64,000 bases of DNA from Deltaproteobacteria bacterium. GTDB lineage: Bacteria > Desulfobacterota > Deferrimicrobia > Deferrimicrobiales > Deferrimicrobiaceae. Position 1 is the first letter of the stretch. The number at the start of each line of letters is the position of its first letter. Below, in pieces: positions 13,834-64,000 of the stretch. The notes below the pieces were generated by a model. The model searched no databases, was not told where the DNA came from, and worked only from the letters and a program-made list of their open reading frames with translations. A program made the position numbers and the translations under genes. Location: NCBI GenBank assembly GCA_050263095.1, contig JBLNEW010000068.1, forward strand, positions 14,570 through 78,569. The letters are read 5' to 3'.

Positions 13834-13878
13834 TTGATTTTAAAGGAACGTGACCCTCGACGGGGCAAGGATCCACTC

Positions 13879-18201: not shown

Positions 18202-18413
18202 CTCGCGTCCTCCATGTAGGCTGTTGGAAAAGGGATTACAAAACAATGTTACATATATTCCATACGGGAATGGGTGTCAACAGAAAAATATAACGGCTTT
18301 ATCGCGATTGGGCTTCCGGTATACGATCCCGTAACTAGAGTCGAAATACCGAGTGTAAACCGTGTCTTTTTAAGGCATTATCGGTTGTAAAACAACCGGA
18401 AATAAAATGTGTT

Positions 18414-18971: not shown

Positions 18972-18993
18972 GCAATCCTCCTTCCCTCTGATA

Positions 18994-32431: not shown

Positions 32432-32970
32432 GGCGCGGCGATCTCCTCCGACACCACGTTGTCGTTGGTATATATGCATATGCCGGAGGCGATGCGCAGC
32501 GCCTCGCACGCGATCGTGAGCGCCGGAAGCTCCGTGTGCTGCAACATTCCCCTTGCCGCCGCCAGGGCGAACGGCCCCCCGGAGCCGACGCCGATCACTC
32601 CGTCGTCGGGCTCGACCACGTCCCCGCTTCCGGACAAAAGCATCAGGTCCCGTCCGTCGGTCACCACCATTACCGCGTCCAGCCGGCGCAGCACCCGGTC
32701 GGTCCTCCATTCCTTCGCGAGCTCCACCGCCGACCTCCGGAGGTTCCCGCGGAATTCGGAGAGCTTCCCCTCGAACTTCTCGAACAGCGTGATCGCATCC
32801 GCGGTCGCCCCCGCAAATCCCGCAAGCACGCGGTCCTCATGCAGGCGGCGGATCTTCCGGGCCGTGTGCTTGAGGATGGTGGCGCCCATGGTCACCTGCC
32901 CGTCCCCCGCCATCGCCACCCGGCCGCCGCGCGACACCGCCACTATCGTAGTCCCCCGAATCTCGGTCAA
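32428..32970 (-). CDS. hslV: ATP-dependent protease peptidase subunit HslV
   Basis: 180 aa, [12 protein letters not shown]... with the N-terminal Thr nucleophile after Met; GDGQVT and GSGG motifs. Confidence 0.9.
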
Positions 32971-33926
32971 GACTTCCTCCCCGGGCGCGACAAGGGGTGC
33001 GCCGACTCGTATGCCCGCACGAGATGGCTGACGTTGACCCTCGCGTACCTCTGCGTCGTGGAAAGCGACGAGTGCCCCAGCATCTCCTGAATAGCCCGCA
33101 GGTCCGCGCCGGATTCCAGCAGGTGCGTCGCGAAGCTGTGCCGGAGTCCGTGCGGCGACAGCTTCCGCCCCGTCCCTGCCCGCCTGAGGGCGTAATCCAG
33201 GATACGGGCGACGCTGCGAGCCGAAAGGCCGCCCCCCCTCAAGTTGCGGAACAGGACACCCGCATCCGAGGCCTTTTCCGAAGAAGCGGACGCTTCCCGC
33301 TCGGACAGGTATTCCCTTATCGCGCGTATCGCCTTCCCCCCGACCGGTACGATCCGCACCTTTCGCCCCTTCCCCGTCACGCGAACCGTGCCCTCCTTCA
33401 GGCGTATGTCTTCACGCCGCAGAGCCACCAGTTCCCCGACGCGCAGGCCCGACGAGTAAAGCAGCTCGAGGATCGCGGCATCGCGCGCGCTCTTCTCTCC
33501 TCCCCCCGGCGCCGATCGGAGCAGGTCCATCATCTCGTCAACCGGGAGAAAACCAGGGAGCTTCATCTCCCTTCGGGGGGCCGCGAGCGACGCAGCCGGA
33601 TTCCCCGGAAGCGCCCCCTGACCGACCAGGAACGCGAAGAATGACCGGACGGCCGAGATCTTCCTCGCCAGGGACGCCGGTTTCAGGGACGGAAACCTGG
33701 CGGAGAAGAACCTGCGCAGGTCATCGGTCGTCACCGTCTTCCACCCGCCGGTCGCCTTGCCGGGGCCCTTCCCCTTCCTCTCCTTCAGGAACGCTTCGAG
33801 ATCGGAAACCTCGCGCACGTATGCGCGCACGGTTTCCCTGGAAGCATTCCGCTCCGAGAGGAGGAACTGCGCGAATCGGCCGATGGCGTCGTTCGAATAC
33901 GTGGCATCTCCCTTCCAAACCTTCAA
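32967..33926 (-). CDS. tyrosine recombinase XerC/XerD family
   Basis: [34 protein letters not shown] box II with catalytic Tyr, and [10 protein letters not shown] box I. I re-called the start to TTG compl. 33924-33926, which gives an XerD-like N-terminal length. Track ATG 34034 would overlap trmFO by about 95 nt. Sits in the conserved xerC-hslV-hslU arrangement. Confidence 0.8.
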
Positions 33927-33939
33927 AAAAGGAAAAGAT

Positions 33940-35292
33940 TTATGTAACACACAAGGGGTTAAATTTAAAGAAACTTCTGCGGAATTCCGTGATCGCGGAA
34001 AGCGCCGCCGCGGCTTGCCTTGCCTTGCGCTCACGCTTCCTGCCGGGCGGGGGCTCCGGGAGCAGGCCGAAGTTGGCGTTCATGGGCTGGCAACGGCCCG
34101 GGCGCGGCGAAGTTATATAACGCAGGAGGGACCCGGTCATGGAGGCGTCGGGAAGCGGGAAGGGCGCTTTCCCCGCCGCCATCGATGCGATGTAACAGGC
34201 AGCCGCGAAACCGGAGGCTATCGACTCCACGTAGCCCTCCACCCCCGTGATCTGGCCCGCGAAGAAAAGGCCCGGACGCCTCCGGCACTCCAGCCACGGA
34301 TGTAGATGGCGCCGCGCGTCCAGGAAGCTGTTCCTGTGGACTGAACCGTACCTCAGAAACCTCGCGCGGGAGAGCCCCGGTATCATGGAAAATACGCGCT
34401 CCTGTTCGGGATAGGCGAGCTTCGTCTGGAATCCGACCAGGTTGTACATCGTCCCCGCCGCATTCTCCTTGCGGAGCTGCACGACGGCGTGCGGAATCCT
34501 TCCCGTCCTTGGGTCCGGAAGGCCGACCGGGCGCATCGGCCCGAAAAGGAGCGTTTCCGGCCCCCTGCGGGCGAGCGTTTCCAACGGCATGCATGACTCG
34601 AAATACCTCTCGTCCTCGAACTCACGGGCAGGGACCACGCGGGCCGACAGCAGCGCGGACAGGAACGCTTCGTACTGCTCCCTGTTCATCGGGAGGTTCA
34701 GATAATCCCCCTCCCAAGGCCGGCCGCCGTACCGGTCCGCCAGGAACGCGGCATCTCCGTCTATCGTGGAGGCGTCGACTATCGGCGAGATCGCGTCGTA
34801 GAAATAATATCCCTCGTCCCCCAGGAGCGTTCGGATCGACGAGGACAGCGCGTCCGAAGGAAGCGGACCGCACGCCACGAGGACAAGGCCCGATTCGGGA
34901 ATCGACCGGACCTCCCTCTCCTCCACCCGGACGTTCGGCCTGGAGCGGACGGCTCCGGTCACCAGCTTCCCGAAGAGTTCGCGGTCCACGGCAAGGGCCT
35001 TTCCCGCGGGGACGCGGGCGCGGTCCGCGAGAAAAAGCAGGTTCGATCCCAGCTCCCGCAGCTCCGCCTTCAGCAGGCCCTTTCCCGACTGCTCTTCCTC
35101 GGAGCCCAGGGAGTTGCTGCACACGAGCTCCGCGAACCATCCCGTCGTGTGCGCGGGCGAAGAGGAGCCCGGGCGCATCTCCAGCAGATCGACGGGAACG
35201 CCCGCGGCCGAGAGGACCAGCGCGGCCTCCGAGCCCGCGAGCCCGGCTCCTATTACGGTGATTCTTGCGTCAGGAGGCGGAACCGCCGGCAC
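33940..35292 (-). CDS. trmFO: methylenetetrahydrofolate--tRNA-(uracil-5)-methyltransferase
   Basis: 450 aa. FAD motif ITVIGAGLAGSEAA; Gid/TrmFO-wide similarity. Confidence 0.85.
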   Translation of the reverse strand: MPAVPPPDARITVIGAGLAGSEAALVLSAAGVPVDLLEMRPGSSSPAHTTGWFAELVCSNSLGSEEEQSGKGLLKAELRELGSNLLFLADRARVPAGKALAVDRELFGKLVTGAVRSRPNVRVEEREVRSIPESGLVLVACGPLPSDALSSSIRTLLGDEGYYFYDAISPIVDASTIDGDAAFLADRYGGRPWEGDYLNLPMNREQYEAFLSALLSARVVPAREFEDERYFESCMPLETLARRGPETLLFGPMRPVGLPDPRTGRIPHAVVQLRKENAAGTMYNLVGFQTKLAYPEQERVFSMIPGLSRARFLRYGSVHRNSFLDARRHLHPWLECRRRPGLFFAGQITGVEGYVESIASGFAAACYIASMAAGKAPFPLPDASMTGSLLRYITSPRPGRCQPMNANFGLLPEPPPGRKRERKARQAAAALSAITEFRRSFFKFNPLCVT

Positions 35293-53731: not shown

Positions 53732-53806
53732 GCCGACGTAGCTCAACGGTAGAGCAGCTGATTCGTAATCAGCAGGTTGCCAGTTCAATCCTGGCCGTCG
53801 GCTCCA
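53732..53806 (+). tRNA. tRNA-Thr (anticodon CGT)
   Basis: Manual cloverleaf. Acceptor GCCGACG/CGTCGGC 7 bp, U8, D-arm GCTC/GAGC, anticodon stem GCTGA/TCAGC with loop TTCGTAA (CGU), T-arm GCCAG-TTCAATC-CTGGC, discriminator T, encoded CCA. Confidence 0.85.
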
Positions 53807-53810
53807 CCAC

Positions 53811-54329
53811 TTACAGGAAAATCACATACTTGCAAGTTGCCGAATCGCGCAGGATCATTCGGGAACGGACGAAATGTAAGGGATTAAGTGCACATTTTAG
53901 ACACATCTTGACGTACTCTAGAGATTTCCCGTTCCCGATGAGCCAGGTTGCGTAGGTGTGCCGAAGGTCGTGAAAGCGAATTTGCCGGAGGCCCGCTTTC
54001 CGCAAGCACGCTGCGAACATATGCCGAACGTTCGCCCCATCCTGCGCCGTCACTTCCACCGATTCCTCCTCATCTTCGGGGAGCCGATATATCTTCGCAG
54101 GGAATACCCACTCGGGCATGGACCGCCCTGCCTTCAACGCTTCCGCAGCCACAGCTCGCCGATGCTCAGTAAGGATAGCCGCCAGCAGGTCGGACAGGTC
54201 CACACGCCGCGCTTTCCCTGACTTCGGCGTGCTGATATGCCCTTCCCAGTTTGCACGCCGCACTTCGATGTATTTCCCATTCCAGTCAATATCGCCCCAT
54301 TGTAAGGCGATCAGTTCTCCCTGCCGCAT
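53811..54329 (-). pseudogene. tyrosine integrase (phage/P4-like), C-terminal catalytic fragment, decayed at both ends
   Basis: Box I GMRQGELIALQWGDID and box II HDLRHTYATWLI are present. The reading frame then diverges into non-integrase sequence before the catalytic Tyr region. Upstream it is joined by a frameshift to ORF 54286..54633. It is 4 nt from the tRNA 3' end. Confidence 0.7.
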
Positions 54330-54689
54330 CCCTTGTTCCGTCAGCCAATCTATACGGGATTTCTACCCCGTCTATCCGATCTTTCAAGCCCAACGATTCC
54401 AAAAACTCAACCGGGATCCGCTTTATTTCAGCTAGTGCCGAGACTGTGACTGATCCACTCGACACAATGCCCGCAATGCGTTTTTGCTCATTTAACGCCG
54501 CGAAAACCGCTTCCGGCGGGCACCCGGCATGACAATGTAAAACGACATCAACCTTTTCACCTGGGTTGACGCTAAGGGAAGGATTGCTGTCCGCATGCGC
54601 GGGCAGCAAGCTGTGAAACCTTGGCCGTTCCATTTAACCCCCTCTAAAAGGTCGGCAATTTCTTGTAATCGTGGGTTGTTGATTTTCAT
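54286..54689 (-). pseudogene. remnant of phage/plasmid primase zinc-binding (CHC2-type) domain, frameshifted and fused to the integrase fragment
   Basis: Two overlapping frames together read ...KWNGQGFTACCP / AHADSNPSLSVNPGEKVDVVLHCHAGCPPEAVFAAL, the CHC2 primase zinc-finger pattern (CPFH-D--PSLSV---G---HCFGCG). Continues into integrase-like sequence with another frameshift. Confidence 0.45.
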
Positions 54690-54931
54690 CGGGTCTCTCT
54701 TCCTCCAGCATCAACTCCGCGGAATATAGCGACCACATCATCGACACATATCGGCTCTTCGCGGTACTGCGCCAACCAGCGATCCACATCTTCGGTCCGG
54801 AAAAGGATGCCGCTACCTGGAGGATGTATGTGCGGAACATATGGCAATAGATGTCGTCGTGCCCAACGTGCGAAACGCCCGCCGCAATACATTCCAGCCT
54901 GTGCCAATGTCAAATACACCGTTATAGACAT
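54686..54931 (-). CDS. AlpA/excisionase-family small HTH protein (possibly degenerate)
   Basis: ITVYLTLAQAGMYCGGRFARWARRHLLPYV...ILFRTEDVDRWLAQ matches the phage AlpA/Xis DNA-binding pattern (l-eaA-yLgvs--tlyRwv--G-fP ... f--edvdaWl). About 80 aa. Confidence 0.4.
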   Translation of the reverse strand: MSITVYLTLAQAGMYCGGRFARWARRHLLPYVPHIHPPGSGILFRTEDVDRWLAQYREEPICVDDVVAIFRGVDAGGRETR

Positions 54932-55041
54932 GCCCATAAGCTCCTTTATAGGGGGCTATCTCGAAAACTATTACTGTTGTAAGGCTGAATGAAAAACTTG
55001 GGTCCAGGCTATATGGACGGAAAAAGAGGACGATATAGCGG

Positions 55042-55689
55042 TTAATACCGCCTATTTTTTAGTCGCCTTCTCCTTTCGGCGACGTAACTGGCGTCGTACT
55101 CTTTCTCCGGATACATCGCACGTAGTAGGGACGCGACTATCTCATCACAAGGGCGGCCGAACCGGTTCTCAAGCCTGTGAGATAACCGTTTAATGAACAT
55201 ATCTGGTGCAGGAGGTTTCCGTCCGGGCTTGCCTTTTTCCTTTGCCCATTGTTCATAAATGTAGATACAGTACCCCACTTCTTCGGCGTCTGGGTTTAAT
55301 AGCGGAACGTCTTCACGCCTTATTAAGCGAATCGCTGCAGCCAAATCGCTGAAGTATTTATTGGGATATCGTTTCCCCGCGATGATTTTGATGTCCGCGC
55401 ACATTCCTATTATGTCTGCAAAATCCTTAAGGTCATTATCGCAACCATCGGCGCATGCAACAAGATATTCTCTTAGGGCAACCGTTGCGAAATCATCAAT
55501 TAGATGGGTATCTACGCCTTCTTTGACAGGTTTCGGTTTGAGGATCTGTAGCGCTTCTCGAAGTTTCTCGGGATTGTCGCGAATCGATGTTTGGAGATGC
55601 CTCTTGACGGCCGTTTCCCAGTTTGCTGGAATTTTTATCGCGGAAAGATTCTTTCGCTTTGGCATGATTCCACCTCCCGGGACCCTCAT
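55042..55689 (-). CDS. hypothetical protein (island-borne, no recognisable domain; not a recombinase)
   Basis: 215-aa ORF in AT-richer DNA, divergent from the cassette array. No R..HxxR..Y tyrosine-recombinase motifs. Confidence 0.45.
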   Translation of the reverse strand: MRVPGGGIMPKRKNLSAIKIPANWETAVKRHLQTSIRDNPEKLREALQILKPKPVKEGVDTHLIDDFATVALREYLVACADGCDNDLKDFADIIGMCADIKIIAGKRYPNKYFSDLAAAIRLIRREDVPLLNPDAEEVGYCIYIYEQWAKEKGKPGRKPPAPDMFIKRLSHRLENRFGRPCDEIVASLLRAMYPEKEYDASYVAERRRRLKNRRY

Positions 55690-56014
55690 TATTACCCGAA
55701 TCGGTGTCTACGAAACCAGGGGAACTCCAGTAGATCTAGCGCACGTGCGGGAAAATTTATTTGAGTACATTCAATTTCCTCGATATGATTCGCACATTAA
55801 TGAGAGATCGTTTGCCATTCCTATTCGGCTACACCTTCGATATTTTCTCAACTGCCGATTGAGCGCCCCCGCATTCCTCAGCATCCGGGGGATCAAGGAG
55901 CCGGGCTTGAGCAGGATGTTCAGGCTACGTTATCCAGGGCATGGCTGCAGGACATGCACCCTAATCCTATCCTTGAATATGTGCTTTATGATTTTTATAG
56001 GCGAGAAATTTACA

Positions 56015-56032
56015 GTCTAAACCGCGTTAGGC
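56015..56032 (+). repeat. minimal attC/attI-like site GTCTAAAC-CGC-GTTAGGC upstream of the first cassette
   Basis: Inverse-core-like GTCTAA(A)C and GTTRRRY core GTTAGGC are separated by 3 nt and lie 36 nt 5' of the first cassette ORF. May mark the insertion point or a collapsed attC. Confidence 0.25.
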
Positions 56033-56068
56033 GAACGATGGAATTATATATAAAAAGGAGAACAAAAT

Positions 56069-56419
56069 ATGGTTAGGGAGATATCAAAATATAAGCCATC
56101 TTTTTCAACGTGCCCATTATGTAATAGCACTATGTCGAGTAAAGAAATACGAGGGCATGTTGTTCGGTGCCAAAAGACGAAACATATTGGTATTGGCGTT
56201 AAGCAATTATCAAAAAATACCGTATTGATTACAAAAAATATACTGTGTAAAGAATGTGGATTAGTCAAGGCCGCCACTTATGATATGAACAATAAAAGAC
56301 CGCCTAAAATTTGTAATGCATGTAAGAAAAATCCTCCTATTAAGTCGAACGATAAATTCGACCCATTAGACCGTTCTATCAGTGGTGGGGCATTTGAAAT
56401 GAATCGAAGGAGACATTAA
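56069..56419 (+). CDS. cassette ORF 1: small Cys-rich (double zinc-ribbon-like) protein, unknown function
   Basis: 116 aa. CPLC...HVVRC and CKEC...CNAC pairs. AAAAGGAG RBS. Followed 8 nt later by attC-like R1. Confidence 0.55.
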   Translation: MVREISKYKPSFSTCPLCNSTMSSKEIRGHVVRCQKTKHIGIGVKQLSKNTVLITKNILCKECGLVKAATYDMNNKRPPKICNACKKNPPIKSNDKFDPLDRSISGGAFEMNRRRH

Positions 56420-56427
56420 TTTACGTC

Positions 56428-56493
56428 GCCTAACCACCGTTTGCAGATGACGGCTTGCAGCTTTCTCGCTGAGCGCAAAGAACTGAAGCGGAG
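56428..56493 (+). repeat. attC-like site R1 (left half intact: GCCTAAC-CA-CCGTTTGCAG ... CTGAAGCGGAG; right core lost)
   Basis: RYYYAAC inverse core GCCTAAC. L''-like CCGTTTGCAG faces L'-like CTGAAGCGG with one extra G. Shares the central consensus GACGGCTyGC...CTTTCTCGCTGAGyGC with R2 and R3. Confidence 0.5.
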
Positions 56494-56526
56494 ATGGGCA
56501 GTAATAATAACAAGGGGAGATCACAA

Positions 56527-56862
56527 ATGGGAGCTGTGGAAAACATAAAAGAAATTGCCGACCTAATAAAGAAGATCGGCGATGCTGATTTGTATCGAAA
56601 GATAGTAGAGTTGGAACATGAAGTATTTGAACTTTCATGCCAAAACCTATTAAGTCTGAGTAAGATCGAAGAGTTAAAAGAAATTTTGCGTGTCAAACAG
56701 AACATCAAATACGATGGCCAAGTATACTATCTTGAGGGAGATTCCGTTCCCTATTGCCCAAAATGCTGGGAAGTTACTAGAGCACTGGTTCACCTAACAG
56801 AATCCGCGAGCCCAAGTTTTGGTCACTGTCCGAATTGTGAAAATTCATTCAGAGTTAGGTAG
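56527..56862 (+). CDS. cassette ORF 2: small coiled-coil protein with C-terminal zinc ribbon, unknown function
   Basis: 111 aa from ATG 56527 (AAGGGGAGA RBS 6 nt upstream). CPKC...CPNC at the C-terminus. Track start 56494 lies inside R1. Confidence 0.55.
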   Translation: MGAVENIKEIADLIKKIGDADLYRKIVELEHEVFELSCQNLLSLSKIEELKEILRVKQNIKYDGQVYYLEGDSVPYCPKCWEVTRALVHLTESASPSFGHCPNCENSFRVR

Positions 56863-56902
56863 ATCTTGGGTTGCTATATTCCAAATTTCTAGGAGATAGC
56901 AC

Positions 56903-57343
56903 ATGAATTTCAATCATATATGTCTCTATACCGATGGTGGTAGCAAAGGCAATCCAGGACCCGGCTCGATTGCCTTAATAATCTGTAACTCAAACAACGA
57001 AATATTACAGGAATATTCGGAATGCATTGGCCACTGCACCAATAACCAAGCAGAGTATAAAGCATTAATAAAAGGCCTCGACTTATCAGCAAGGTATACC
57101 CGGCGGAAGGTAACCTGTTACTCCGACAGCGAACTATTGATAAAACAAATGAATGGACAGTACAGATTAAAAAATGCTGCACTCAGAAAGTTGTTTCACC
57201 AAGTCCAGGACCTAGTTCGGATGTATGACGAGGTAGTATACCAACATGTACTCAGAGGAAATCAGCGAATAACGCGGGCTGACCAGCTTGTAAAGCAGGC
57301 CCATGCGGGGAGACATATTGATAAGGTGCATGTCATACCGTGA
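56903..57343 (+). CDS. cassette ORF 3: RNase HI-like (type 1 ribonuclease H fold) protein
   Basis: 146 aa. YTDGGSKGNPGPGSIA (Asp1), NNQAEYKALIKGL (Glu), CYSDSELLI (Asp2), C-terminal RADQL (Asp3). Aligns by eye to the E. coli RnhA catalytic residues; lacks the basic protrusion. Confidence 0.75.
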   Translation: MNFNHICLYTDGGSKGNPGPGSIALIICNSNNEILQEYSECIGHCTNNQAEYKALIKGLDLSARYTRRKVTCYSDSELLIKQMNGQYRLKNAALRKLFHQVQDLVRMYDEVVYQHVLRGNQRITRADQLVKQAHAGRHIDKVHVIP

Positions 57344-57347
57344 CGCC

Positions 57348-57421
57348 AGCTAACCACTGCTTGGCACTGACGGCTCGCGTCTTTCTCGCTGAGTGCCCGC
57401 AGCTGAAGCGGAGCGTTAGAC
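57348..57421 (+). repeat. attC-like site R2 (AGCTAAC ... CTGAAGCGGAGC-GTTAGAC), 74 bp
   Basis: Starts 5 nt after the ORF 3 stop and ends 24 nt before the ORF 4 start. Ends in GTTAGAC (GTTRRRY). The left end is its imperfect reverse complement. Internal L''/L' pairing with an extra G. Confidence 0.55.
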
Positions 57422-57445
57422 CGACTGAAAAATGGGAGGAGGGAA

Positions 57446-57718
57446 TTGAAACACTCACTGAGAAACTTATTCGTTTTCCTGTCCATTATGGGTTTAATCG
57501 TTTCCGCATGTGCTCATCAGCCAACTCCAGCCGCATATGATCCCCCAGGATTCTTCTCTGGTCTATGGCATGGATTTATTATTTTATTCAGTCTCATTGG
57601 AAGCATTTTTTCCGACATTAGAATCTACGCATTTCCAAATTCAGGTGGGTGGTACGACTTTGGTTTCTGCATAGGGGTAACTGCATTTTTTGGTGGAGGA
57701 GCAAGTGCTGCAACATGA
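57446..57718 (+). CDS. cassette ORF 4: small lipoprotein / membrane protein
   Basis: 90 aa from TTG (GGAGGAGGG RBS just upstream). MKHSLRNLFVFLSIMGLIVSAC has a lipobox-like signal peptide, then two hydrophobic helices and a Gly-rich tail. Confidence 0.5.
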   Translation: MKHSLRNLFVFLSIMGLIVSACAHQPTPAAYDPPGFFSGLWHGFIILFSLIGSIFSDIRIYAFPNSGGWYDFGFCIGVTAFFGGGASAAT

Positions 57719-57753
57719 GTGGAAAAACAAACAAGGGACATTTTGTTTACGCG

Positions 57754-57826
57754 GTCTAACTACCGCTTGCAAATGGCGGCTCGCGTCTTTTCGTTTAGCG
57801 CCCGCTGCTGAAGCGGAGCGTTAGAC
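57754..57826 (+). repeat. attC-like site R3 (GTCTAAC-TA-CCGCTTGCA ... TGAAGCGG-AGC-GTTAGAC), 73 bp, best-preserved copy
   Basis: R'' GTCTAAC and R' GTTAGAC are perfect reverse complements. L'' CCGCTTGCA pairs with L' TGAAGCGG leaving one bulged G. Starts 36 nt after the ORF 4 stop and ends 15 nt before the ORF 5 ATG, with GGAGGAG between. Confidence 0.6.
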
Positions 57827-57841
57827 CGCGGAGGAGAAATA

Positions 57842-58480
57842 ATGAAGAAGATATCAGTGAAGGGATTGGCGGATTATATGACGGCAAGTGCTGCGGCACA
57901 AAGGAGGTTAATACGGCAATACAAATACCCTTCTGAGGATGAAGCACGAGCGAAAATTTTGTATTACCGCGAAGCAAGGGACCGAATTGAGGCGTTCCAT
58001 AGAAGAGGACGGGATGCGGATTGGCTCAGGTCCCAAGCATCAAACCTCCGAGGTCTTGCTTTGCTCTCCTCTGTGCGAACACGCACACGCCTTCGACACA
58101 ATGCACGGGCACTTATAGATTATGGGCGGAACTTCAGCACCAAGACATTTTCGGTTCTCCCCGATATATCATTATCCGTTCAATATGGCGATCTTCGGAT
58201 AACAGCATTCCCTGATCTATATGTGAATGAAGATGGTGAATCAAAAATAATTAAACTAGATTTTTCCAAGAAACCACTGCCATCGGACGTACCAAAAATA
58301 ATATGTCAGGTGTTCCTAGAAGCCTCGATCCAAGCAGGTATGAGCATTCAAGCAAAAAATATTCTTCTATTCGATGTTACGAGAGGCAAAGAATATAAAC
58401 AAGCAAGAATAGGAGCAAGAATGAGTAGGAATATAGAAGCGACATGCCAAACGATTTCTGCTGTCTGGGACACAATATAA
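57842..58480 (+). CDS. cassette ORF 5: hypothetical protein (possible PD-(D/E)xK-like motif FPDLYV...ESK, weak)
   Basis: 212 aa, no confident domain. GGAGGAG RBS. Confidence 0.5.
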   Translation: MKKISVKGLADYMTASAAAQRRLIRQYKYPSEDEARAKILYYREARDRIEAFHRRGRDADWLRSQASNLRGLALLSSVRTRTRLRHNARALIDYGRNFSTKTFSVLPDISLSVQYGDLRITAFPDLYVNEDGESKIIKLDFSKKPLPSDVPKIICQVFLEASIQAGMSIQAKNILLFDVTRGKEYKQARIGARMSRNIEATCQTISAVWDTI

Positions 58481-58489
58481 ATTAAGACG

Positions 58490-58618
58490 GTCTAACTACC
58501 GCTTGAAGCTGACAGCTCCTTCTGGTCACAGTTCTTGCGGATTGGCGGCGCACCGAAAAGCCTTGGCCGTCGGGGTAAGGCTCGCCCCTCATCTCGCGGC
58601 TTAAGCCGAACGTAAGGC
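58490..58618 (+). repeat. attC-like site R4 (GTCTAAC-TA-CCGCTTGAAGC ... GCGGCTTAAGCCG-AAC-GTAAGGC), 129 bp, long/degenerate
   Basis: Left 20 nt nearly identical to R3. Right end GCGGCTTAA(G)C..GT(a)AGGC resembles known attC 3' ends, with a degenerate core. L''/L' again differ by one extra G. Confidence 0.45.
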
Positions 58619-58641
58619 ACAATGGGGAGGTACATACATTC

Positions 58642-59346
58642 ATGGCCATCCTGGCATTAAGTTGTACAAAATGTGGCAAAGAAAAGCCGATATTTATGGG
58701 GGATGAATTCGCCGGCATTAGGGATGAAATTGCCGGCAATGTGATCCATTGCGATGCATGCCACGAAATAATAATAAGATGCAGAGTTATAAGAGGTTAT
58801 ATCTACGTGTTATCTAATCCGTCGATGCCAGGACTATATAAGATTGGTATGACAAGAAGGCCACTGGGAGACAGAGTTAATGAATTGGGAGCGTCAACTG
58901 GGGTTCCAACACCTTTTGTTGTTGAGGCATACTTCGAAACCAACGACCCAGAAGAGCATGAGAGAAAGGTTCATATCGCCCTTGGGGAATACCGGATGCC
59001 AAGCAAAGAATTTTTCAGACTGCGTCTTGAGGAAGTGCTGAAAGCCGTTAAGGACATATGCGGACTGGAAAGCGTATCCAATAATTATTATTTTCAGGTT
59101 AATCAAGATGATAGCCAAGCGGAATACCCCGACGGAGCCCCACGAGAGTACCGAGGACAGTCTGAGCATCTCTTTCAAAAATGTCCACCGGTTGGGCATG
59201 AAAGAATCTTCGGAATCAGTTTGAACAGCAACATGAGGGCTCAATGTCGAAGCTGTGGCGCATTGTTATCACCACGAGCATCGGTTTGTGGATTCTGTAA
59301 TAAACCTCTGGAGGACAAAGACGTAATTATTGTTGAAAAAAAGTGA
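58642..59346 (+). CDS. cassette ORF 6: T5orf172/GIY-YIG-like domain protein flanked by N- and C-terminal zinc ribbons
   Basis: 234 aa. GYIYVLSNPSMPGLYKIGMTRRPLGDRVNEL...PFVVEAYFETNDPEEHERKVHIAL...EFF matches the T5orf172 (GIY-YIG-related) pattern. CTKCGK...CDAC and CRSCG...CGFC ribbons. Confidence 0.6.
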   Translation: MAILALSCTKCGKEKPIFMGDEFAGIRDEIAGNVIHCDACHEIIIRCRVIRGYIYVLSNPSMPGLYKIGMTRRPLGDRVNELGASTGVPTPFVVEAYFETNDPEEHERKVHIALGEYRMPSKEFFRLRLEEVLKAVKDICGLESVSNNYYFQVNQDDSQAEYPDGAPREYRGQSEHLFQKCPPVGHERIFGISLNSNMRAQCRSCGALLSPRASVCGFCNKPLEDKDVIIVEKK

Positions 59347-59521
59347 CGATGTATTAGTGAAAATTGGCCTATGTGCCTAACAAGCACAGGCGTATACGAA
59401 GACATGAAAAAAAATATGATTCCTCCGCGGATGGGATATTCTCGACAAAAAGGAGGTCGACTTCGAGGTGAACAGATGTTGACATTTCCAATGCCTACGA
59501 TCCTTCAGGTGGCCTGAGACG

Positions 59522-62500
59522 ATGAACGACGAATACGCGCAATCGAATGGCATCCAAGGGTTTTCACAAAAAGTCCTCCGATATTTCCTGAACTTCCTTC
59601 AGTCGGATTTCAAGAGGCAGCATGCCCCGCGTCGTCGTATACATTTGCATTCGGATGCCGGCTTCCGAATGGGAATGCCACTCAGGAAATACGACTCACT
59701 TTACAAGGCCTCGTGGAAACTCGTCGACACCACTCCGGACGGAGGATTGTCTCTCCGGATCGCTCCCGATCAGTTCCGGGCTCCAATCAATCCGACGCTG
59801 CGTGACCTCATCCGGCAGTACATCAATGCCATCGAAGACTGCACGATTTCAGGCATAGCAAAGACCACGGTCGAGTTTGCCGCGGGGAGGATCGTATCTG
59901 CCGCGAAGGACCCGGAGAAATTCGTCGAATCCGTCCAGGTCCATTTCGCCGAAGAAATCGGTAAGCACATCGTCCAACCCCTTCTGTCTTTACTGGAGGC
60001 ACCATTCAGGGATGCAGCCTATTCGGCCATCGAGTCCATATACGAGATCGAGGCCGACCTCACGGATGTCATCGCGTCAAGAACCCTTGAGAATCTCCCG
60101 CTGGCTATCAATACGTTGATTGTCTCGGGCAACACAGCGCCAATGCGAGACCTCTTCGCGGATTCCTTCTCCCCTCAGGACGTCCGGTTCCGCGTGCAAT
60201 CGTTCTTCGTCGATGTCGCTACCTCCGACGCCTTCCAGGAACTGCGCGACCTCCAAAACTCACTGCGTTCCGCGGAAAACCAGTCCATATACCTATACTT
60301 CTGCGACTTGAAGTTCGGACACAATATTTTCCCGCTGTTCTACATTCCATCCACGCTTACATACGATGAAGGGGACCGGGCATTCATTCTCGACTTCGAG
60401 CCGCACCTTTTCGTTAACAAGCAGGCGGTCGACTGGATTCTCCAAGAACATAAGGGGGAAACAGCTTCCCTCCCCATTTCCCCAGTGGCCGACCGCATCG
60501 TCTATCTGGACGGCAAGCGGTCTTTCCTCGAGGAAATGGAGACCGTTTTCTCCCGCCTCATCCTCGCGTTCGAGTTGGCTGCCGGTATCGACCTACAGAG
60601 GAAAACACTCCAACAGGTATCCTCGCCGATGCTGAAGATCACAACCGCCGCATACCTCGCAGTCTTCGACAAGTCGGACGAATCGCTGATCAACGACTAT
60701 GAGGAGCTTCTCGCCGCTTTCAACGAGGAACAGAAGAGCGCCGGCGACCTCTTCGAAAACATCATCAAGGGTTTCTTATTCGATAACCCCGTCTCCGTTT
60801 CCTCGGCTGTCGAGTCTGCATGGGACGAGATGACCATCCCCGACCGTCTGGTAGCCGTCTCGCCGATCCCCGTGAATGAGGAGCAACGGAAGATCCTAAT
60901 GGCCTTGAAAAATCCTAACTGCAACTATGTATCCGTCCAGGGACCTCCGGGAACTGGAAAATCACACACAATCACGGCAATTGCGTTCGAAGGGATCCTA
61001 AACGGTCAGAGCGTCCTCATCCTCTCCGACAAGACCGAAGCTCTCGACGTCGTGCAAGACAAACTGGAATCAGCCCTTTCCAAGGTGCGGCACGGAGACG
61101 AAGATTTCCCCAACGCTATCCTGCGGCTGGGAAGATCCGGAGGCACCTACAACCGCCTCGTGTCCGCGTCAGCCCAAGCGAAGATCAAATGCCACCACAA
61201 AGCGGCAATCAGTCACGAGGAGGACCTCAGAAAACAATACGAAGAGACGTCGGCCACGCTGCGCGCTGACATCGGGAAAACAGTCGAATCCCTATCCTCG
61301 ATCAGGATTGATGTTCTGAACGAACTGCACGCGCTTGAAGCCGAGATCGAAACCGTCCGACCGGAGATCATCTCCAGGCTCCAGAGGCCTTCGGAGCCCG
61401 TCCGCATTCCCGTACTCGCTCCCTTGGCTGGCGCGGCCCACTTTCCCTCGGCGTCCGCGGTTCTGACCCGGGCTTTCCGGGAAGGCGGTAGCAACACACT
61501 CCAATACCTCGTCCCCCATCTTTCCGCTTGGGAGCGCGCAGGGCAACTGGCCGGGGATGTTGGACCGCGCGACCCACTGTCGGTTTTCTCCACGCTCGAA
61601 TCCAGCCACCACGAGACACTCCTCCGGTACATCGCCCGGTACGAATCGCTACGCATGCCGATTATCGGCTGGCTATTCCGGCGGGCAGCGGTTCGCGAAA
61701 CCGACCTCAAGGCCGGCTCCGATCTACCCTGTCCCGACCCGATTGACCTTCACAAGCGATTGCCGCACATGAAGCGTGCGGCTCGCGTCCTGGGTCTTCT
61801 TTGCGACACGTTCACCCGCGAGGGACTTCAGGAACATCTTGTAGGCTTCGCGTATCGCCTTCTCAGGGAAGGCGAGGCTACGCATGCTGATGTTCCCGCG
61901 CTGGCGTCTCTGGCGAGGGAGTTCTCATCGGTTATCGCTGGTTCTCCCTCGAATGCCGATACTCTGCTTCGTTCAGAGGATTTCCGAACCCCGGAGGAAC
62001 TTTTCGCATTCATCGCAAAAGCCGTCAGGTACTCCGCTCTCTGGTCAGACATCGTCGGACATATGGGGAGAGTTCCGAAGACCGACTACGTCGGCACCAA
62101 GATCCGGCTCGAGCAACTGAACACCACTCGGATGACCCGCGAGATCGACAGCCGCTTCCTCGAATTCGTCGATCAAAAGAAGGCGACGGTTAAAGAGATC
62201 GGCGGCGTCATCAAGCACAAGCAGAAATTCCCAGAGGACGAGTTCCACCACCTTTCGGACGCGTTTCCCATCATCATCGCCGGCATCCGGGAGTACGCCG
62301 AATATGTCCCTCTCAAGCAGAGGTTGTTCGACCTGGTCGTAATCGACGAAGCCAGCCAGGTGTCTGTCGCCCAAGCACTCCCGGCTGTCCTCCGTGCAAA
62401 GAAGATCGTCGTCTTCGGCGACGCAAAACAGTTCTCGAACGTGAAGTCCTCGCAAGCGAGTATCGCTATCAACGCAGGCTACCTGACCGACATCGAGGCG

Positions 62501-63910
62501 TATTTCCGAGACAACGTCGCCGATGCGACGACAAAGATCCAGCGGTTGAAGCATTTCGATGTAAAGAAATCGATCCTCGAATTCTTCGACCTCATCGCCA
62601 ACTACCAGACGATGCTCCGCAAACACTTCCGCGGCTATCAGGAATTGATCAGCTTCTCGTCGAAAACCTTCTATGACGGACAGCTGCAGGCGATTAAAAT
62701 CCGCAGTAAACCCATTCAGGAGGTGCTCCGCTTCGAGGTTCTCGAGTCTGTCCCGGAAAGCCCTGTCAAGAACGTGAACCGGGCCGAGGCCGAATTTATC
62801 CTCAAGGAACTTCGCCGGATGATCGACGATGGCGATGAGATGTCCATCGGCGTCATTACGCCGTTCCGGGAACAGGTCAAGCTCCTCAACGAGATCCTTT
62901 TCCGCGACGCGTACGGCGAAAAGTTCGAGTCCGAGCTTCGCCTGAAGATCATGACCTTCGATACCTGCCAGGGTGAGGAGCGCGACCTGATCATCTTCAG
63001 CATGGTCGCAACTGCCAAGCGGGATCTGCTCAACTATGTATTCCCCGTCACGCTCGATGCCGAAACCCAGGATTCTGACAGGCTCAAGGTCCAGCGCCTG
63101 AACGTCGGATTCAGCCGCGGCAAGGAAGCGTTTCTGTTCGTCCTCTCCAAGCCGGCCGACCAGTTTCGTGGTTCGATCGGAATCGTTCTGAACCACTACA
63201 AGAATATCCTGGATGACAGGTCCCGGGCAGACAAGCTGGGTGTTGACCCGACATCCCCGATGGAAATCAAGGTTCTCGACTGGATCTACAAGACGCCTTT
63301 CTGCCAGATCAACGAAGAACGGATCGAGGTCGTCCCGCAATTCCCGGTGGGGGAGTACCTCAGGCAATTGGACCCGTTCTATGCGCATCCGGCCTATTGT
63401 TGCGATTTCCTCGTCCGCTACTATGACGGGCAAACCACTGCCAATGTCATCATCGAATACGACGGGTTTGCCGAGCACTTCGTAGAGAGGAATAAAATCC
63501 ACAACGGGAACTGGGAACTCTACTATCGCCCCGAGGATATCGAACGCCAGATGGTCATCGAGTCCTACGGCTACAAATTCCTGCGCCTGAACCGGTTCAA
63601 CACCGGGAATGACCCGGTGGATTATATGTCGAAGCGCCTATACGAACTCGTGGAGGTAGCCTCAAAGGCCGACGAGGACAGCAGCCCTGTTGCTCATATC
63701 AAGGACGACGCGGAAGGAATCGAGAACGGTAGCAAGCGGTGTTGTCCTAAGTGCGGAGAGATCCGCAAAGCCCAAGAGTTCTGGGACCCCAAGCTCAAGA
63801 GCGGAAGTGGAGGATACGGTCGGAACTGTCTGGAGTGCAAACAGGCGGCGCTCAAGGCCCGTTCGGGAGGGAAAACAAGGAGGTGGCGTTCCCGCTATAG
63901 ATACCGTTGA
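59522..63910 (+). CDS. large SF1 helicase (AAA_11/AAA_12, Upf1-like) with long N-terminal domain and C-terminal Vsr/DUF559-like endonuclease domain plus terminal zinc ribbon; Hhe-like defence architecture
   Basis: 1462 aa. Walker A VQGPPGTGKSHTI, motif II VVIDEASQV, motif III VVFGDAKQF, motifs V/VI TFDTCQGEERDLIIFSMV...NVGFSRGK. C-terminal IIEYDGFAEHF...D..R......GYKFLRLNRF is the DUF559/Vsr-like PD-(D/E)xK pattern. CPKCGE...CLEC at the extreme C-terminus. Confidence 0.75.
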   Translation: MNDEYAQSNGIQGFSQKVLRYFLNFLQSDFKRQHAPRRRIHLHSDAGFRMGMPLRKYDSLYKASWKLVDTTPDGGLSLRIAPDQFRAPINPTLRDLIRQYINAIEDCTISGIAKTTVEFAAGRIVSAAKDPEKFVESVQVHFAEEIGKHIVQPLLSLLEAPFRDAAYSAIESIYEIEADLTDVIASRTLENLPLAINTLIVSGNTAPMRDLFADSFSPQDVRFRVQSFFVDVATSDAFQELRDLQNSLRSAENQSIYLYFCDLKFGHNIFPLFYIPSTLTYDEGDRAFILDFEPHLFVNKQAVDWILQEHKGETASLPISPVADRIVYLDGKRSFLEEMETVFSRLILAFELAAGIDLQRKTLQQVSSPMLKITTAAYLAVFDKSDESLINDYEELLAAFNEEQKSAGDLFENIIKGFLFDNPVSVSSAVESAWDEMTIPDRLVAVSPIPVNEEQRKILMALKNPNCNYVSVQGPPGTGKSHTITAIAFEGILNGQSVLILSDKTEALDVVQDKLESALSKVRHGDEDFPNAILRLGRSGGTYNRLVSASAQAKIKCHHKAAISHEEDLRKQYEETSATLRADIGKTVESLSSIRIDVLNELHALEAEIETVRPEIISRLQRPSEPVRIPVLAPLAGAAHFPSASAVLTRAFREGGSNTLQYLVPHLSAWERAGQLAGDVGPRDPLSVFSTLESSHHETLLRYIARYESLRMPIIGWLFRRAAVRETDLKAGSDLPCPDPIDLHKRLPHMKRAARVLGLLCDTFTREGLQEHLVGFAYRLLREGEATHADVPALASLAREFSSVIAGSPSNADTLLRSEDFRTPEELFAFIAKAVRYSALWSDIVGHMGRVPKTDYVGTKIRLEQLNTTRMTREIDSRFLEFVDQKKATVKEIGGVIKHKQKFPEDEFHHLSDAFPIIIAGIREYAEYVPLKQRLFDLVVIDEASQVSVAQALPAVLRAKKIVVFGDAKQFSNVKSSQASIAINAGYLTDIEAYFRDNVADATTKIQRLKHFDVKKSILEFFDLIANYQTMLRKHFRGYQELISFSSKTFYDGQLQAIKIRSKPIQEVLRFEVLESVPESPVKNVNRAEAEFILKELRRMIDDGDEMSIGVITPFREQVKLLNEILFRDAYGEKFESELRLKIMTFDTCQGEERDLIIFSMVATAKRDLLNYVFPVTLDAETQDSDRLKVQRLNVGFSRGKEAFLFVLSKPADQFRGSIGIVLNHYKNILDDRSRADKLGVDPTSPMEIKVLDWIYKTPFCQINEERIEVVPQFPVGEYLRQLDPFYAHPAYCCDFLVRYYDGQTTANVIIEYDGFAEHFVERNKIHNGNWELYYRPEDIERQMVIESYGYKFLRLNRFNTGNDPVDYMSKRLYELVEVASKADEDSSPVAHIKDDAEGIENGSKRCCPKCGEIRKAQEFWDPKLKSGSGGYGRNCLECKQAALKARSGGKTRRWRSRYRYR

Positions 63911-63965: not shown

Positions 63966-64000
63966 ATGAGGGTTGAGCTGACCTTGCCGGAAGAGTTCGC
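63966..64000 (+). CDS. start of an unidentified gene (MRVELTLPEEF...), truncated by window end
   Basis: AAGGAGG RBS 6 nt upstream of ATG; only 11 codons visible. Confidence 0.25.
   Translation, partial: MRVELTLPEEF

What the first reader, a model, noticed from the sequence alone, without database searches (positions are those of the whole stretch)
53732..55700. tRNA-Thr(CGT) integration hotspot with a decayed P4-like module: truncated integrase, frameshifted primase zinc finger, AlpA-like gene
DNA composition switches from high-GC to AT-richer exactly 3' of the tRNA. Four nt downstream an integrase C-terminal fragment (boxes I and II present, catalytic-Tyr region replaced) reads toward the tRNA. 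Upstream it is spliced by frameshifts to a CHC2 primase zinc-finger remnant. An AlpA/Xis-like HTH ORF follows. This is the typical tRNA-int-alpA-primase layout of P4-type integrative elements, heavily eroded. The cassette array and helicase lie inside or next to this scar, so the locus looks like a repeatedly used insertion hotspot. The right-hand att repeat (a copy of the tRNA 3' end) is not in the window.
Basis: partly seen in the sequence, partly recalled or inferred. Interest (0 to 1): 0.5.

Follow-up and report, generated by a model that had tools for sequence, protein, structure and literature searches.

The report
Dead genomic island in tRNA-Thr gene
An 11-kb piece of foreign DNA sits in a threonine tRNA gene of an uncultured sediment bacterium; the machinery that once moved it (the remains of a small phage-satellite-like element) is broken, and some cells in the same community lack the insert, so this is an ordinary, well-delimited example of a decayed mobile island.

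Summary
tRNA-Thr(CGT) lies at 53732-53806. GC drops from 63.9% to 50.5% at its 3' end. An integrase fragment (box I to box II, no catalytic Tyr) ends 4 nt from the tRNA. It is fused out of frame to a frameshifted CHC2 primase zinc finger, followed by an HTH gene and an intact 215-aa gene.

The right-hand att repeat, a 45-nt copy of the tRNA 3' half (40/45 identical), lies 731-775 nt past the window's end. An empty site occurs in a 99.95%-identical strain. The island is 10,969 bp (window 53807 to about 64775). Occupied and empty alleles coexist in one sample, and the broken allele is 99.8-100% identical across nine samples or runs, so the lesions are real.

"P4-like" is not supported. An intact relative (L011, about 9.15 kb) has the five PICI-type functions: integrase, HTH regulator, CHC2 primase with AAA_25 helicase, small terminase and capsid protein. 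About 6.9 kb of this was deleted here. "Repeatedly used hotspot" is only hinted at. The rest of the island is an eroded attC cassette array without an integron integrase, plus a defence-like SF1 helicase. This is an ordinary decayed tRNA island, of modest interest.

The parts
53732..53806 (+). Intact tRNA-Thr(CGT), the left junction (attL) of the island
   Evidence: ARAGORN; Rfam 70.7 bits. Its T-arm, GCCAG/CTGGC, is identical to the empty-site allele in L003.
53762..53806 (+). 45-nt att block (anticodon loop to 3' end). It is repeated at the island's right end, window-equivalent 64731-64775 (L001 15210-15254), outside the window
   Evidence: blastn-short: 40/45 identical, E = 1e-9, and the only other copy on the contig. 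All 5 mismatches are in the T-arm and keep the stem paired. The right-end version is identical to the native tRNA of L024.
53807..53906 (.). 100-nt leftover between the tRNA and the point where integrase homology ends; it replaces about 170 nt that should encode the Tyr-containing C-terminus
   Evidence: No significant similarity to the C-terminal tails of relatives in any frame. Relatives continue ...QLGHSSIQITVDTYGHLIPGANR... and run into the tRNA.
53907..54338 (-). Tyrosine-recombinase catalytic-domain fragment (box I Arg, beta-hairpin Lys, box II HxxR); N-terminal domains and catalytic Tyr missing (ORF 53811-54329)
   Evidence: PF00589 positions 36-154/172, E = 1.3e-15; PHROG integrase 3.5e-24; alignment A1; tblastn limits.
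54331..54689 (-). N-terminal 119 residues of a CHC2 zinc-finger primase protein. It has a 1-nt frameshift at about 54600-54618 and is fused out of frame to the integrase fragment at about 54331-54338
   Evidence: P0122 (170 aa) is 64% identical over 97% of the query. tblastn pieces: residues 7-32 and 27-119. PF01807 25.5 bits against a cut-off of 24.9; PHROG 6088 DNA primase 3.4e-11.
54686..54937 (-). 83-aa HTH_17-like (AlpA/excisionase-type) gene, overlapping the zinc-finger gene's start by 4 nt
   Evidence: PF12728 E = 2.6e-4, below the cut-off; PHROG 66 excisionase/regulator E = 0.0097; same position as the HTH_17 gene in L013/L015/L016.
55042..55689 (-). orf215, intact, function unknown; homologue of the terminal gene (orf224) of the intact relative
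   Evidence: tblastn 48% identity, E = 6e-54; alignment A2; only 8 cluster representatives among 1.84 billion; no Pfam, PHROG or PADLOC hit; AlphaFold model pLDDT 47.9.
55690..56068 (.). Spacer between the satellite remnant and the first cassette; contains GTCTAAACCGCGTTAGGC (56015-56032), a minimal attC/attI-like core
   Evidence: Sequence read; GTTRRRY scan; no similarity to the L011 arm.
56069..59521 (+). Eroded integron-type cassette array with no integron integrase (CALIN-like). There are about five cassettes, including an RNase H (56903-57343) and a T5orf172 gene (58642-59346). Canonical attC sites lie at 57348-57421 and 57754-57826, eroded ones start at 56428 and 58490
   Evidence: Repeat families D1-D4. 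R''/R' cores and a -29 kcal/mol bottom-strand fold. Pfam. No IntI remnant. Cassette content is identical in the other samples that cover the array.
59522..63910 (+). 1462-aa SF1 (AAA_11/AAA_12) helicase, cargo with partial similarity to anti-phage helicases
   Evidence: Pfam. PADLOC PDC-S37 2.5e-41 and MkoA/MkoC, partial. NCBIfam ProA 134.7 bits against a cut-off of 1500, so not a member.
63966..64000 (+). Start of a second HTH_17-like gene (105 aa, runs to window-equivalent 64283). It is followed off-window by orf81, a roughly 200-nt AT-rich arm and the right att copy
   Evidence: ORFs in L001; PF12728 E = 9.6e-5, below the cut-off; PHROG 66 excisionase/regulator 3e-5.

Best explanation
The finding is the left end of a 10,969-bp genomic island (window 53807 to window-equivalent 64775). 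A tyrosine recombinase inserted it into the 3' half of the tRNA-Thr(CGT) gene of an uncultured Deferrimicrobiaceae (MBNT15) bacterium. Integration left a complete, presumably functional tRNA at the left junction and a 45-nt tRNA fragment at the right junction. The first 1.9 kb is the wreck of a small PICI-like phage-satellite-type element. It keeps, in the ancestral order, the terminal gene (orf215), an AlpA-type HTH regulator and the first 119 codons of a CHC2 primase, which also carry a 1-nt frameshift. A deletion of about 6.9 kb then removed the rest of the primase-helicase, the packaging and capsid genes and the first two thirds of the integrase. It fused the primase stub out of frame to integrase box I. 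A second lesion removed the integrase C-terminus with the catalytic Tyr. The island therefore cannot excise or integrate by itself. Its remaining 9 kb is cargo or later accretion: an eroded attC cassette array, a defence-like SF1 helicase and a second HTH gene. Shown: the borders, the empty site, homology and gene order with the intact relative, the lesions, and their identity across samples. Inferred: the size of the deletion, and that strand exchange lay in the last 12 nt of the tRNA. That position follows because the host-type T-arm is at the left junction and a foreign T-arm, identical to that of another lineage, is at the right.
For: Borders: there is only one extra copy of the tRNA 3' half on the contig, in direct orientation, exactly where GC and tetranucleotide composition return to host values. 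Empty site: in L003 the tRNA is followed directly by the DNA that lies right of the repeat; the left flank has 2 mismatches in 4,285 nt. Coexistence: L099, from the same sample as L003, is 100% identical to the island over 6,789 nt. Intact relative: L011/L013 carry orf224, HTH_31, HTH_17, zf-CHC2 (170 aa), AAA_25 (483 aa), TerS (phrog_57, 1.7e-22), capsid (PF05065, phrog_617) and an integrase, bounded by a 16-nt direct repeat. Collinear remnants map to the window by tblastn. Integrase clade: the closest relatives' ORFs run into tRNA genes, for example L004 overlaps tRNA-Lys by 38 nt. The lesions recur in independent assemblies. The only other tyrosine recombinase on the 67.7 kb available is XerC.
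Against: The integrase fragment is only 26.5% identical to the L011 integrase, so the ancestor was not simply an L011 copy, and the 6.9-kb deletion size is an extrapolation. No intact element combining this integrase clade with the orf215/zinc-finger module was found. In L011 the orf224 gene lies about 230 nt from the element's end, whereas here another 9 kb follows, so single-element ancestry of the whole island is not shown. The att block begins exactly in the anticodon loop. By the usual rule (PMC4383910) that predicts the right-hand fragment is the displaced host half, yet it is the foreign one. The right flank is more diverged (2 mismatches in 114 nt) than the left flank.
Confidence: 0.8

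Rival explanations
1. Composite hotspot. The 11 kb was built by two or more independent insertions at the same tRNA: a satellite-type element, then or earlier a helicase/HTH element, and a cassette array. The internal att copies and the other integrase(s) were later deleted.
For: Four compositional sub-domains of 51%, 44%, 56% and 49% GC. Two HTH_17/excisionase-like genes, one at each end. In the intact relative the orf224 gene is terminal, so the DNA beyond orf215 may not belong to that element. L024 carries an integrase-like C-terminus (PF00589 positions 137-170, E = 0.002) beside a 21-nt tRNA-end repeat at the same tRNA. L024 and L026 carry a 145-165-nt islet bounded by tRNA-end repeats. 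Several relatives' contigs end at or just after this tRNA.
Against: The island holds only one displaced tRNA fragment and one integrase remnant. The motif shared between the two arms neither supports nor excludes a single attP (P about 0.12). Satellites are known to carry variable cargo near their ends (PMC10085698). The closest relatives L034 and L026 have ordinary genes after the tRNA, and no integrase among the ORFs tested.
Confidence: 0.4
2. The empty allele is derived, not ancestral. The island integrated by an anticodon-loop crossover into a host whose native tRNA 3' half is the one now at the right end. The 'empty' strain then arose by deletion through the 12-nt identity at the two tRNA 3' ends, or the alleles were exchanged by homologous recombination of the flanks.
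For: The repeat starts exactly in the anticodon loop, which is the A-type block in which the fragment is normally the displaced host half (PMC4383910). Relatives' integrase ORFs include at least 38 nt of the tRNA, consistent with a long element-borne block. The right flank has 2 mismatches in 114 nt against 2 in 4,285 nt on the left. The integrase is dead, so the polymorphism needs another route anyway.
Against: It needs an extra rare event. The T-arm of the attL tRNA and the empty allele differs from the closest relative L034 by one compensated base pair only, whereas the right-end version differs by a pair plus a loop base. That makes the attL/empty version the more likely native one.
Confidence: 0.25
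3. The integrase fragment is the remnant of the integron integrase that served the adjacent attC array, so the locus is a degraded integron rather than a tRNA-integrating element.
For: The fragment lies left of the array on the opposite strand, the usual intI orientation. No other intI is present.
Against: The integron-integrase models score 18.8 bits against cut-offs of 265 and 435. tblastn with IntI1 gives only 27% identity at E = 0.005 and shows no IntI-specific insertion. Three genes of the satellite module lie between the fragment and the array. The closest relatives (61-70% identical) abut or overlap tRNA genes.
Confidence: 0.03
4. The frameshift and truncations are sequencing or assembly artefacts, and the module is functional.
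For: The source is a short-read metagenome assembly, and the frameshift lies in a short C/G run.
Against: The same sequence is 99.8-100% identical in contigs from eight other samples or runs, including independent Logan assemblies. The main lesions are multi-kilobase and roughly 70-nt deletions, not single-base errors.
Confidence: 0.02

Closest known systems
tRNA-integrated genomic islands as defined by Islander (Hudson, Lau and Williams 2015, PMC4383910; Williams 2002)
   Same: A tyrosine-integrase gene lies next to an intact tRNA. A direct-orientation 3' tRNA fragment marks the other end. The block starts in the anticodon loop (subsite A). Composition is foreign and an empty site exists in a sister strain.
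   Different: The integrase is a dead fragment, so Islander's integrase filter would see only a partial PF00589 hit. The fragment at the far end carries a foreign T-arm while the regenerated tRNA carries the host's, the reverse of the usual expectation.
PICI-type phage satellites (five core functions in PMC10085698)
   Same: The intact relative L011 has an integrase, an AlpA-type HTH regulator, a primase with helicase, a capsid-family protein and a small terminase in about 9 kb. It has no detected tail, holin, portal or TerL. The window keeps the regulator, the primase stub and the integrase stub in the same order.
   Different: In L011 the integrase is at the end far from the regulator and replication genes. 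The host phylum (MBNT15/Deferrimicrobiaceae) is outside the Proteobacteria and Firmicutes, where more than 99.9% of PICIs were reported. Induction by a helper phage is untested. In the window only 3 of the 5 functions survive, two of them broken.
P4-like satellites
   Same: General backbone of integrase, AlpA-like regulator and primase, with integration at a tRNA gene.
   Different: No Psu, Delta, Sid or Ash was detected in the window or in the relative. The helicase of the relative is AAA_25, not the P4 alpha type. The integrase does not match the P4/CP4-57-type model PRK09692.
CALIN (cluster of attC sites lacking an integron integrase; Cury et al. 2016, PMC4889954)
   Same: An array of co-oriented short ORFs separated by 70-125-nt imperfect palindromes with RYYYAAC...GTTRRRY ends, and no intI on the 67.7 kb of contig available here.
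   Different: Only two of the four or five sites are canonical. I did not run IntegronFinder's attC covariance model. The array sits inside a tRNA-bounded island.

Membership tests
tRNA-integrated genomic island (Islander definition) | Intact tRNA gene at one end and a cognate tRNA fragment in direct orientation at the other | tested here: met
   tRNA at 53732-53806; 45-nt fragment, 40/45 identical, at L001 15210-15254, same strand; no other copy.
tRNA-integrated genomic island (Islander definition) | Tyrosine integrase gene inside the island | tested here: inconclusive
   Only a fragment is present (PF00589 positions 36-154 of 172), lacking the Tyr and the N-terminal domains.
tRNA-integrated genomic island (Islander definition) | An unoccupied site in a related genome that joins the two flanks precisely | tested here: met
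   L003: the tRNA is followed at once by the right flank.
P4-like satellite (PMC10085698: integrase, Psu, Delta, Sid, AlpA, Ash/epsilon, alpha) | Psu-Delta-Sid capsid-hijacking operon | tested here: not met
   No such hit in Pfam, PHROGs or NCBIfam for any ORF of the island's left module or of the intact relative L011. I did not use dedicated SatelliteFinder profiles.
P4-like satellite (PMC10085698: integrase, Psu, Delta, Sid, AlpA, Ash/epsilon, alpha) | Alpha-type primase-helicase | tested here: not met
   The primase stub is a DnaG-type CHC2 finger (PF01807). The partner helicase in the relative is AAA_25, matching PHROG primase/helicase and DnaB-like families.
P4-like satellite (PMC10085698: integrase, Psu, Delta, Sid, AlpA, Ash/epsilon, alpha) | P4/CP4-57-type integrase | tested here: not met
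   NCBIfam PRK09692 gives no hit for the fragment or for its relative P0008. The N-terminal domain is deleted, so that part is untestable.
P4-like satellite (PMC10085698: integrase, Psu, Delta, Sid, AlpA, Ash/epsilon, alpha) | AlpA-type regulator | tested here: inconclusive
   HTH_17 at E = 2.6e-4, below the gathering score; PHROG 66 at E = 0.0097.
PICI (five core functions, PMC10085698), applied to the intact relative L011 | Integrase, AlpA/MerR/Stl-type regulator, primase-replicase, capsid-morphogenesis protein and small terminase, without tail or holin genes | tested here: met
   PF00589; HTH_17 and HTH_31; PF01807 with PF13481; PF05065/phrog_617; phrog_57. No tail, holin, portal or TerL hits. 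This rests on general profiles, not on SatelliteFinder's own.
PICI (five core functions, PMC10085698), applied to the window itself | The same five functions | tested here: not met
   Only the regulator is intact. The primase and integrase are stubs, and the small terminase and capsid genes are absent.
PICI / phage satellite | Induction and packaging by a helper phage | not testable with these tools
   Needs an experiment or virome data.
cfPICI (11 core components including TerL and head-tail adaptor/connector) | TerL, portal and head-tail adaptor/connector genes | tested here: not met
   None found among the L011 ORFs by PHROGs. The element is only about 9.15 kb.
Integron / CALIN | At least two attC sites (RYYYAAC...GTTRRRY imperfect palindromes) flanking promoterless ORFs | tested here: met
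   57348-57421 and 57754-57826 are canonical; the latter is 73 nt with a -29 kcal/mol bottom-strand hairpin. I did not run the attC covariance model.
Integron / CALIN | Integron integrase (IntI) adjacent to the array; its absence defines a CALIN | tested here: not met
   IntI models score 18.8 bits against a cut-off of 265. The only other recombinase on the contig is XerC.

The most novel reading that the evidence does not exclude
The wreck is the first glimpse, in the candidate phylum MBNT15 (Deferrimicrobiaceae), of an undescribed lineage of small PICI-like satellites. Their layout would be orf215/224, HTH, a split CHC2 primase with AAA_25 helicase, TerS, capsid and a distal integrase, using interchangeable integrases, some of whose genes read into the target tRNA. 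In addition, the foreign tRNA half kept at the island's right end would record transfer from a different species (one with an L024-type tRNA). That would mean the element was captured or moved by a crossover at a different tRNA subsite than its att block implies.
Probability: 0.3. Interest if true: 0.45.

Novelty: new member of a known kind. Interest (0 to 1): 0.25.

Why it matters
On its own this is a textbook decayed tRNA island, so it matters little. It is useful in three small ways.

1. It is a cleanly delimited example: both junctions, the empty site, and both alleles coexisting in one community. It can serve as a marker for strain-level variation in an uncultured iron-cycling lineage.

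2. It points to a very rare family of PICI-like elements outside the phyla where satellites are known. The terminal gene has only 8 cluster representatives among 1.84 billion.

3. The host-type T-arm at the regenerated tRNA and the foreign T-arm in the displaced fragment are the reverse of the usual rule. That pattern could be used to study how islands move after their integrase has died.

Tried and rejected
- **Intact parents or further copies.** I scanned viral contigs with orf215, HTH105, the helicase and a back-translated KGKPGRKPPA motif. I scanned metagenome contigs with the element-specific right-arm/att junction and with the orf215/orf224 alignment. All found nothing; the tool chose weak peptide patterns.
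- **Shared arm-type sites.** The two island ends share one 9-mer (GCAACTTGC), which is not significant (P about 0.12). This gives no verdict on one element versus two.
- **Remnant of the missing integrase C-terminus.** The 100 nt next to the tRNA holds only an out-of-frame 4-aa 'HLIP' match (E = 0.5). I did not use it.
- **Integron-integrase origin of the fragment.** Rejected.
- **A second integrase on the contig.** The only one is XerC, next to trmFO.
- **Function of orf215.** There are no family hits, no match to solved structures (best E = 0.02), and the AlphaFold model has pLDDT 47.9. I ran no fold search because the model is too poor.
- **Integrases downstream of the tRNA in close relatives.** An HMM built from alignment A1 found none. 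Only a 35-residue C-terminal piece in L024 looks integrase-like.
- **Known RNA family for the L024/L026 block.** None.
Full report
**Source and coordinates.** The window matches ENA metagenome contig ERZ27292721 k141_192968 (72,155 bp). Locus L001 overlaps it with a single mismatch in 14,479 nt, at window 52508. L001 continues 3.7 kb past the window's end; L001 coordinate = window - 49,521. RNase G orthologues place the host among Candidatus Deferrimicrobium / Deferrimicrobiaceae MAGs, with best identities of 94%, 91% and 86%. That lineage is described as candidate phylum MBNT15 (PMC9386147).

**Observation check.** ARAGORN and Rfam both call tRNA-Thr(CGT) at 53732-53806 (+). One-kb windows outside the island average 0.639 GC (sd 0.029), and the island averages 0.505. 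Tetranucleotide distance from the host profile rises from z of about 0 at 52 kb to z = 20 at 56 kb, then falls back to z = -0.8 at 65 kb.

The ORF at 53811-54329 (-) stops 4 nt from the tRNA and matches PF00589 over profile positions 36-154 of 172 (E = 1.3e-15). Aligned with its closest relatives (61-70% identical), it starts at the box I motif TG-MRQGE and keeps the Lys and the box II HDLRH. It loses homology after ...SLEYVK at 53907, where the relatives continue ...EQLGHSSIQITVDTYGHLIPGANR.... The catalytic Tyr and everything N-terminal of box I are therefore absent.

Upstream, two overlapping reading frames encode residues 7-32 and 27-119 of a 170-aa CHC2 zinc-finger protein (P0122, 64% identity). 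A single-base frameshift at about 54600-54618 splits them. The 83-aa ORF at 54686-54937 is only weakly HTH_17-like (E = 2.6e-4). It does occupy the position of the HTH_17 gene in the intact relative and overlaps the next gene by 4 nt in the same way.

All these lesions are 99.8-100% identical in contigs from eight other samples or runs: ERZ27292717, -718, -722, -723, -725, SRR7777797 and SRR7777786. They are real features of a circulating allele.

**Borders and empty site.** The only other copy of the tRNA on the contig is a 45-nt direct repeat of tRNA positions 31-75, from the anticodon loop to the 3' end. It lies at L001 15210-15254, which is window-equivalent 64731-64775, and is 40/45 identical (E = 1e-9). 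Host-like GC resumes there, followed by VanZ-like and SerA-like genes.

Contig L003 (ERZ27292723) carries the same RNase G and tRNA, with 2 mismatches in 4,285 nt. There the tRNA is followed immediately by the sequence that lies right of the repeat in L001. This is the empty site. The island is therefore 10,969 bp. L099, from the same sample as L003, is 100% identical to the island over 6,789 nt, so both alleles coexist in one community.

**What the decayed module was.** P0122 sits in an element found in several assemblies (L011-L016). Its gene order is orf224, HTH_31, HTH_17, zf-CHC2 (170 aa), AAA_25 helicase (483 aa), orf53, a 120-aa small terminase (phrog_57, 1.7e-22), a 370-aa HK97-type capsid protein (PF05065, phrog_617), small ORFs and a 354-aa integrase. 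A 16-nt direct repeat bounds it, at the 3' end of a DUF218 gene and again just past the integrase, giving about 9.15 kb. No portal, TerL, adaptor, tail, holin or Psu/Sid/Delta homologue was found.

These are the five core PICI functions of PMC10085698. They are not the seven P4-like components and not the eleven cfPICI components.

The window's orf215 is 48% identical to orf224 (E = 6e-54), and the zinc-finger pieces follow in the same order. The integrase, however, is only 26.5% identical to L011's. It belongs to a clade whose genes read into tRNA genes: the relatives' C-terminal tails...LVGHAGIEPATS, are T-arm DNA read on the opposite strand, and L004's integrase overlaps tRNA-Lys(CTT) by 38 nt.

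By analogy with L011, the distance from zinc-finger codon 119 to integrase codon 197 is about 6.9 kb, all of it missing here. This figure is an inference. The fusion point is at 54331-54338.

NCBIfam places the fragment in no curated family. The integron-integrase model scores 18.8 bits against 265, and the P4/CP4-57-type model PRK09692 gives no hit.

**The rest of the island.** Positions 56069-59521 hold five short co-oriented ORFs, among them an RNase H and a T5orf172 gene (the latter matching PADLOC PDC-S57 at 4e-27). They are separated by repeats with integron attC architecture. Two sites are canonical (57348-57421, and 57754-57826 with GTCTAAC...GTTAGAC ends, 73 nt and -29 kcal/mol). Two are eroded, and a minimal core sits at 56015-56032. 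No integron integrase exists on the 67.7 kb available; the only other recombinase is XerC at 32967-34034. This fits a CALIN (PMC4889954). Cassette content is identical in the other samples that cover the array.

A 1462-aa SF1 helicase follows. It shows partial similarity to anti-phage helicases but scores far below their cut-offs. After it come a second HTH_17-like gene (105 aa), orf81 and the right arm. The sub-domains differ in GC (0.51, 0.44, 0.56 and 0.49), so the island is a mosaic.

**Mechanism and the att puzzle.** The architecture is that of a tyrosine-recombinase insertion into a tRNA 3' half, with the regenerated tRNA and a fragment marking the ends (PMC4383910). The five mismatches between the two copies all lie in the T-arm and keep it paired. 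The intact tRNA and the empty allele share GCCAG-TTCAATC-CTGGC. The right-end fragment has GGCGG-TTCAAGC-CCGCC, which is identical to the native tRNA-Thr of a more distant relative, L024.

If the empty allele is ancestral, strand exchange must have occurred 3' of the last mismatch, within CCGTCGGCTCCA, and the element brought the foreign half with it. Yet the block begins exactly in the anticodon loop, the A-type signature in which the fragment should be the displaced host half. There are two alternatives: the empty allele is a secondary deletion through the 12-nt terminal identity, or homologous recombination exchanged the alleles.

The right flank shows 2 mismatches in 114 nt against 2 in 4,285 nt on the left. 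By my own Poisson estimate that has P of about 0.001, which hints at a different history for the right flank. I could not resolve this.

Because the integrase lacks its nucleophile and its DNA-binding domains, the island cannot move itself. The presence/absence polymorphism must be old, catalysed in trans, or due to recombination.

**Hotspot claim.** The RNase G-tRNA-Thr linkage is conserved in the relatives, but what follows the tRNA differs in every lineage. L034 and L026 carry ordinary genes there, and none of the ORFs I tested is an integrase. L024 and L026 carry a 145-165-nt block bounded by a 21-nt copy of their own tRNA 3' end. In L024 an integrase-like C-terminus (PF00589 positions 137-170, E = 0.002) reads toward that block at the contig's end. 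Several contigs break at or just after the tRNA. The site is therefore variable across the clade and was probably hit independently in L024. Within this genome, only one insertion event is documented.

**Verdict.** The feature is a decayed, non-autonomous tRNA-Thr genomic island whose left end is a PICI-like, not P4-like, satellite remnant. It is a new member of a known kind and of low to modest interest.

Noticed in passing
L024 13246-13410 and L026 11666-11850: A conserved block of about 125 nt sits directly 3' of tRNA-Thr(CGT) in two related species. It folds into a long hairpin (41 predicted pairs, 6 kept through compensatory changes, from only two sequences). It begins with an inverted copy of each species' own T-arm and ends with a 21-nt copy of each species' own tRNA 3' end. 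There is no Rfam family, and it is absent from the window's host and from the other 93 fetched loci. It could be a miniature integrative element or a tRNA-linked structured RNA.
   Followed up: partly
L024 13427-13654 (-): At the contig's end there is an integrase-like C-terminus (...LQRIAGYSGIQITAQHYLHV...; PF00589 positions 137-170, E = 0.002). It reads toward the tRNA-Thr site and is unrelated in sequence to the window's integrase clade.
   Followed up: partly
L011 8570-17736 (also L012-L016): An apparently intact PICI-like element of about 9.15 kb in related MAGs, bounded by a 16-nt repeat (CTTCCTCTACTGGGA) at the 3' end of a DUF218 gene. It carries orf224, HTH_31, HTH_17, zf-CHC2, AAA_25, TerS, an HK97-type capsid gene and an integrase. 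The 170-aa zinc-finger protein ends in the Toprim-like motif LVEGESD, and the helicase ORF starts 52 nt later, so the primase-helicase may be split. The family was not found in IMG/VR.
   Followed up: partly
L004 120-764, L005 886-1530; proteins P0002, P0006-P0009: A clade of tyrosine integrases whose ORFs extend into the target tRNA gene on the opposite strand, giving C-terminal tails such as ...LVGHAGIEPATS. In L004 the integrase overlaps tRNA-Lys(CTT) by 38 nt. Most database members are short, apparently truncated copies that start at the conserved TGMR Met.
   Followed up: partly
window 52508: The window differs from ENA contig k141_192968 (L001) by one base (T against C), inside the RNase G gene. 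The window may therefore come from a different assembly of the same population, possibly the 82-kb NCBI MAG contig that carries the protein tagged ACM31N_07675.
   Followed up: no
window 58642-59346 and 59522-63910: Cargo with anti-phage flavour. The T5orf172 protein matches PADLOC PDC-S57 (4e-27) and PD-Lambda-1. The 1462-aa SF1 helicase partly matches PDC-S37, Mokosh MkoA/MkoC, ProA and Hhe, but scores far below their curated cut-offs.
   Followed up: partly
L034 11883-11918: About 220 nt downstream of its tRNA-Thr, the closest relative has a palindromic copy of the tRNA's anticodon stem-loop region: 20 nt at 100% identity on the minus strand, overlapping 18 nt on the plus strand. Further downstream lies a 1.5-kb low-GC stretch (0.41-0.56) holding a PEP-CTERM protein gene.
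   Followed up: no
window 13001-14000 and 18001-19000: Two other 1-kb windows of the otherwise 64% GC contig drop to 0.55 and 0.51 GC. I did not examine them.
   Followed up: no
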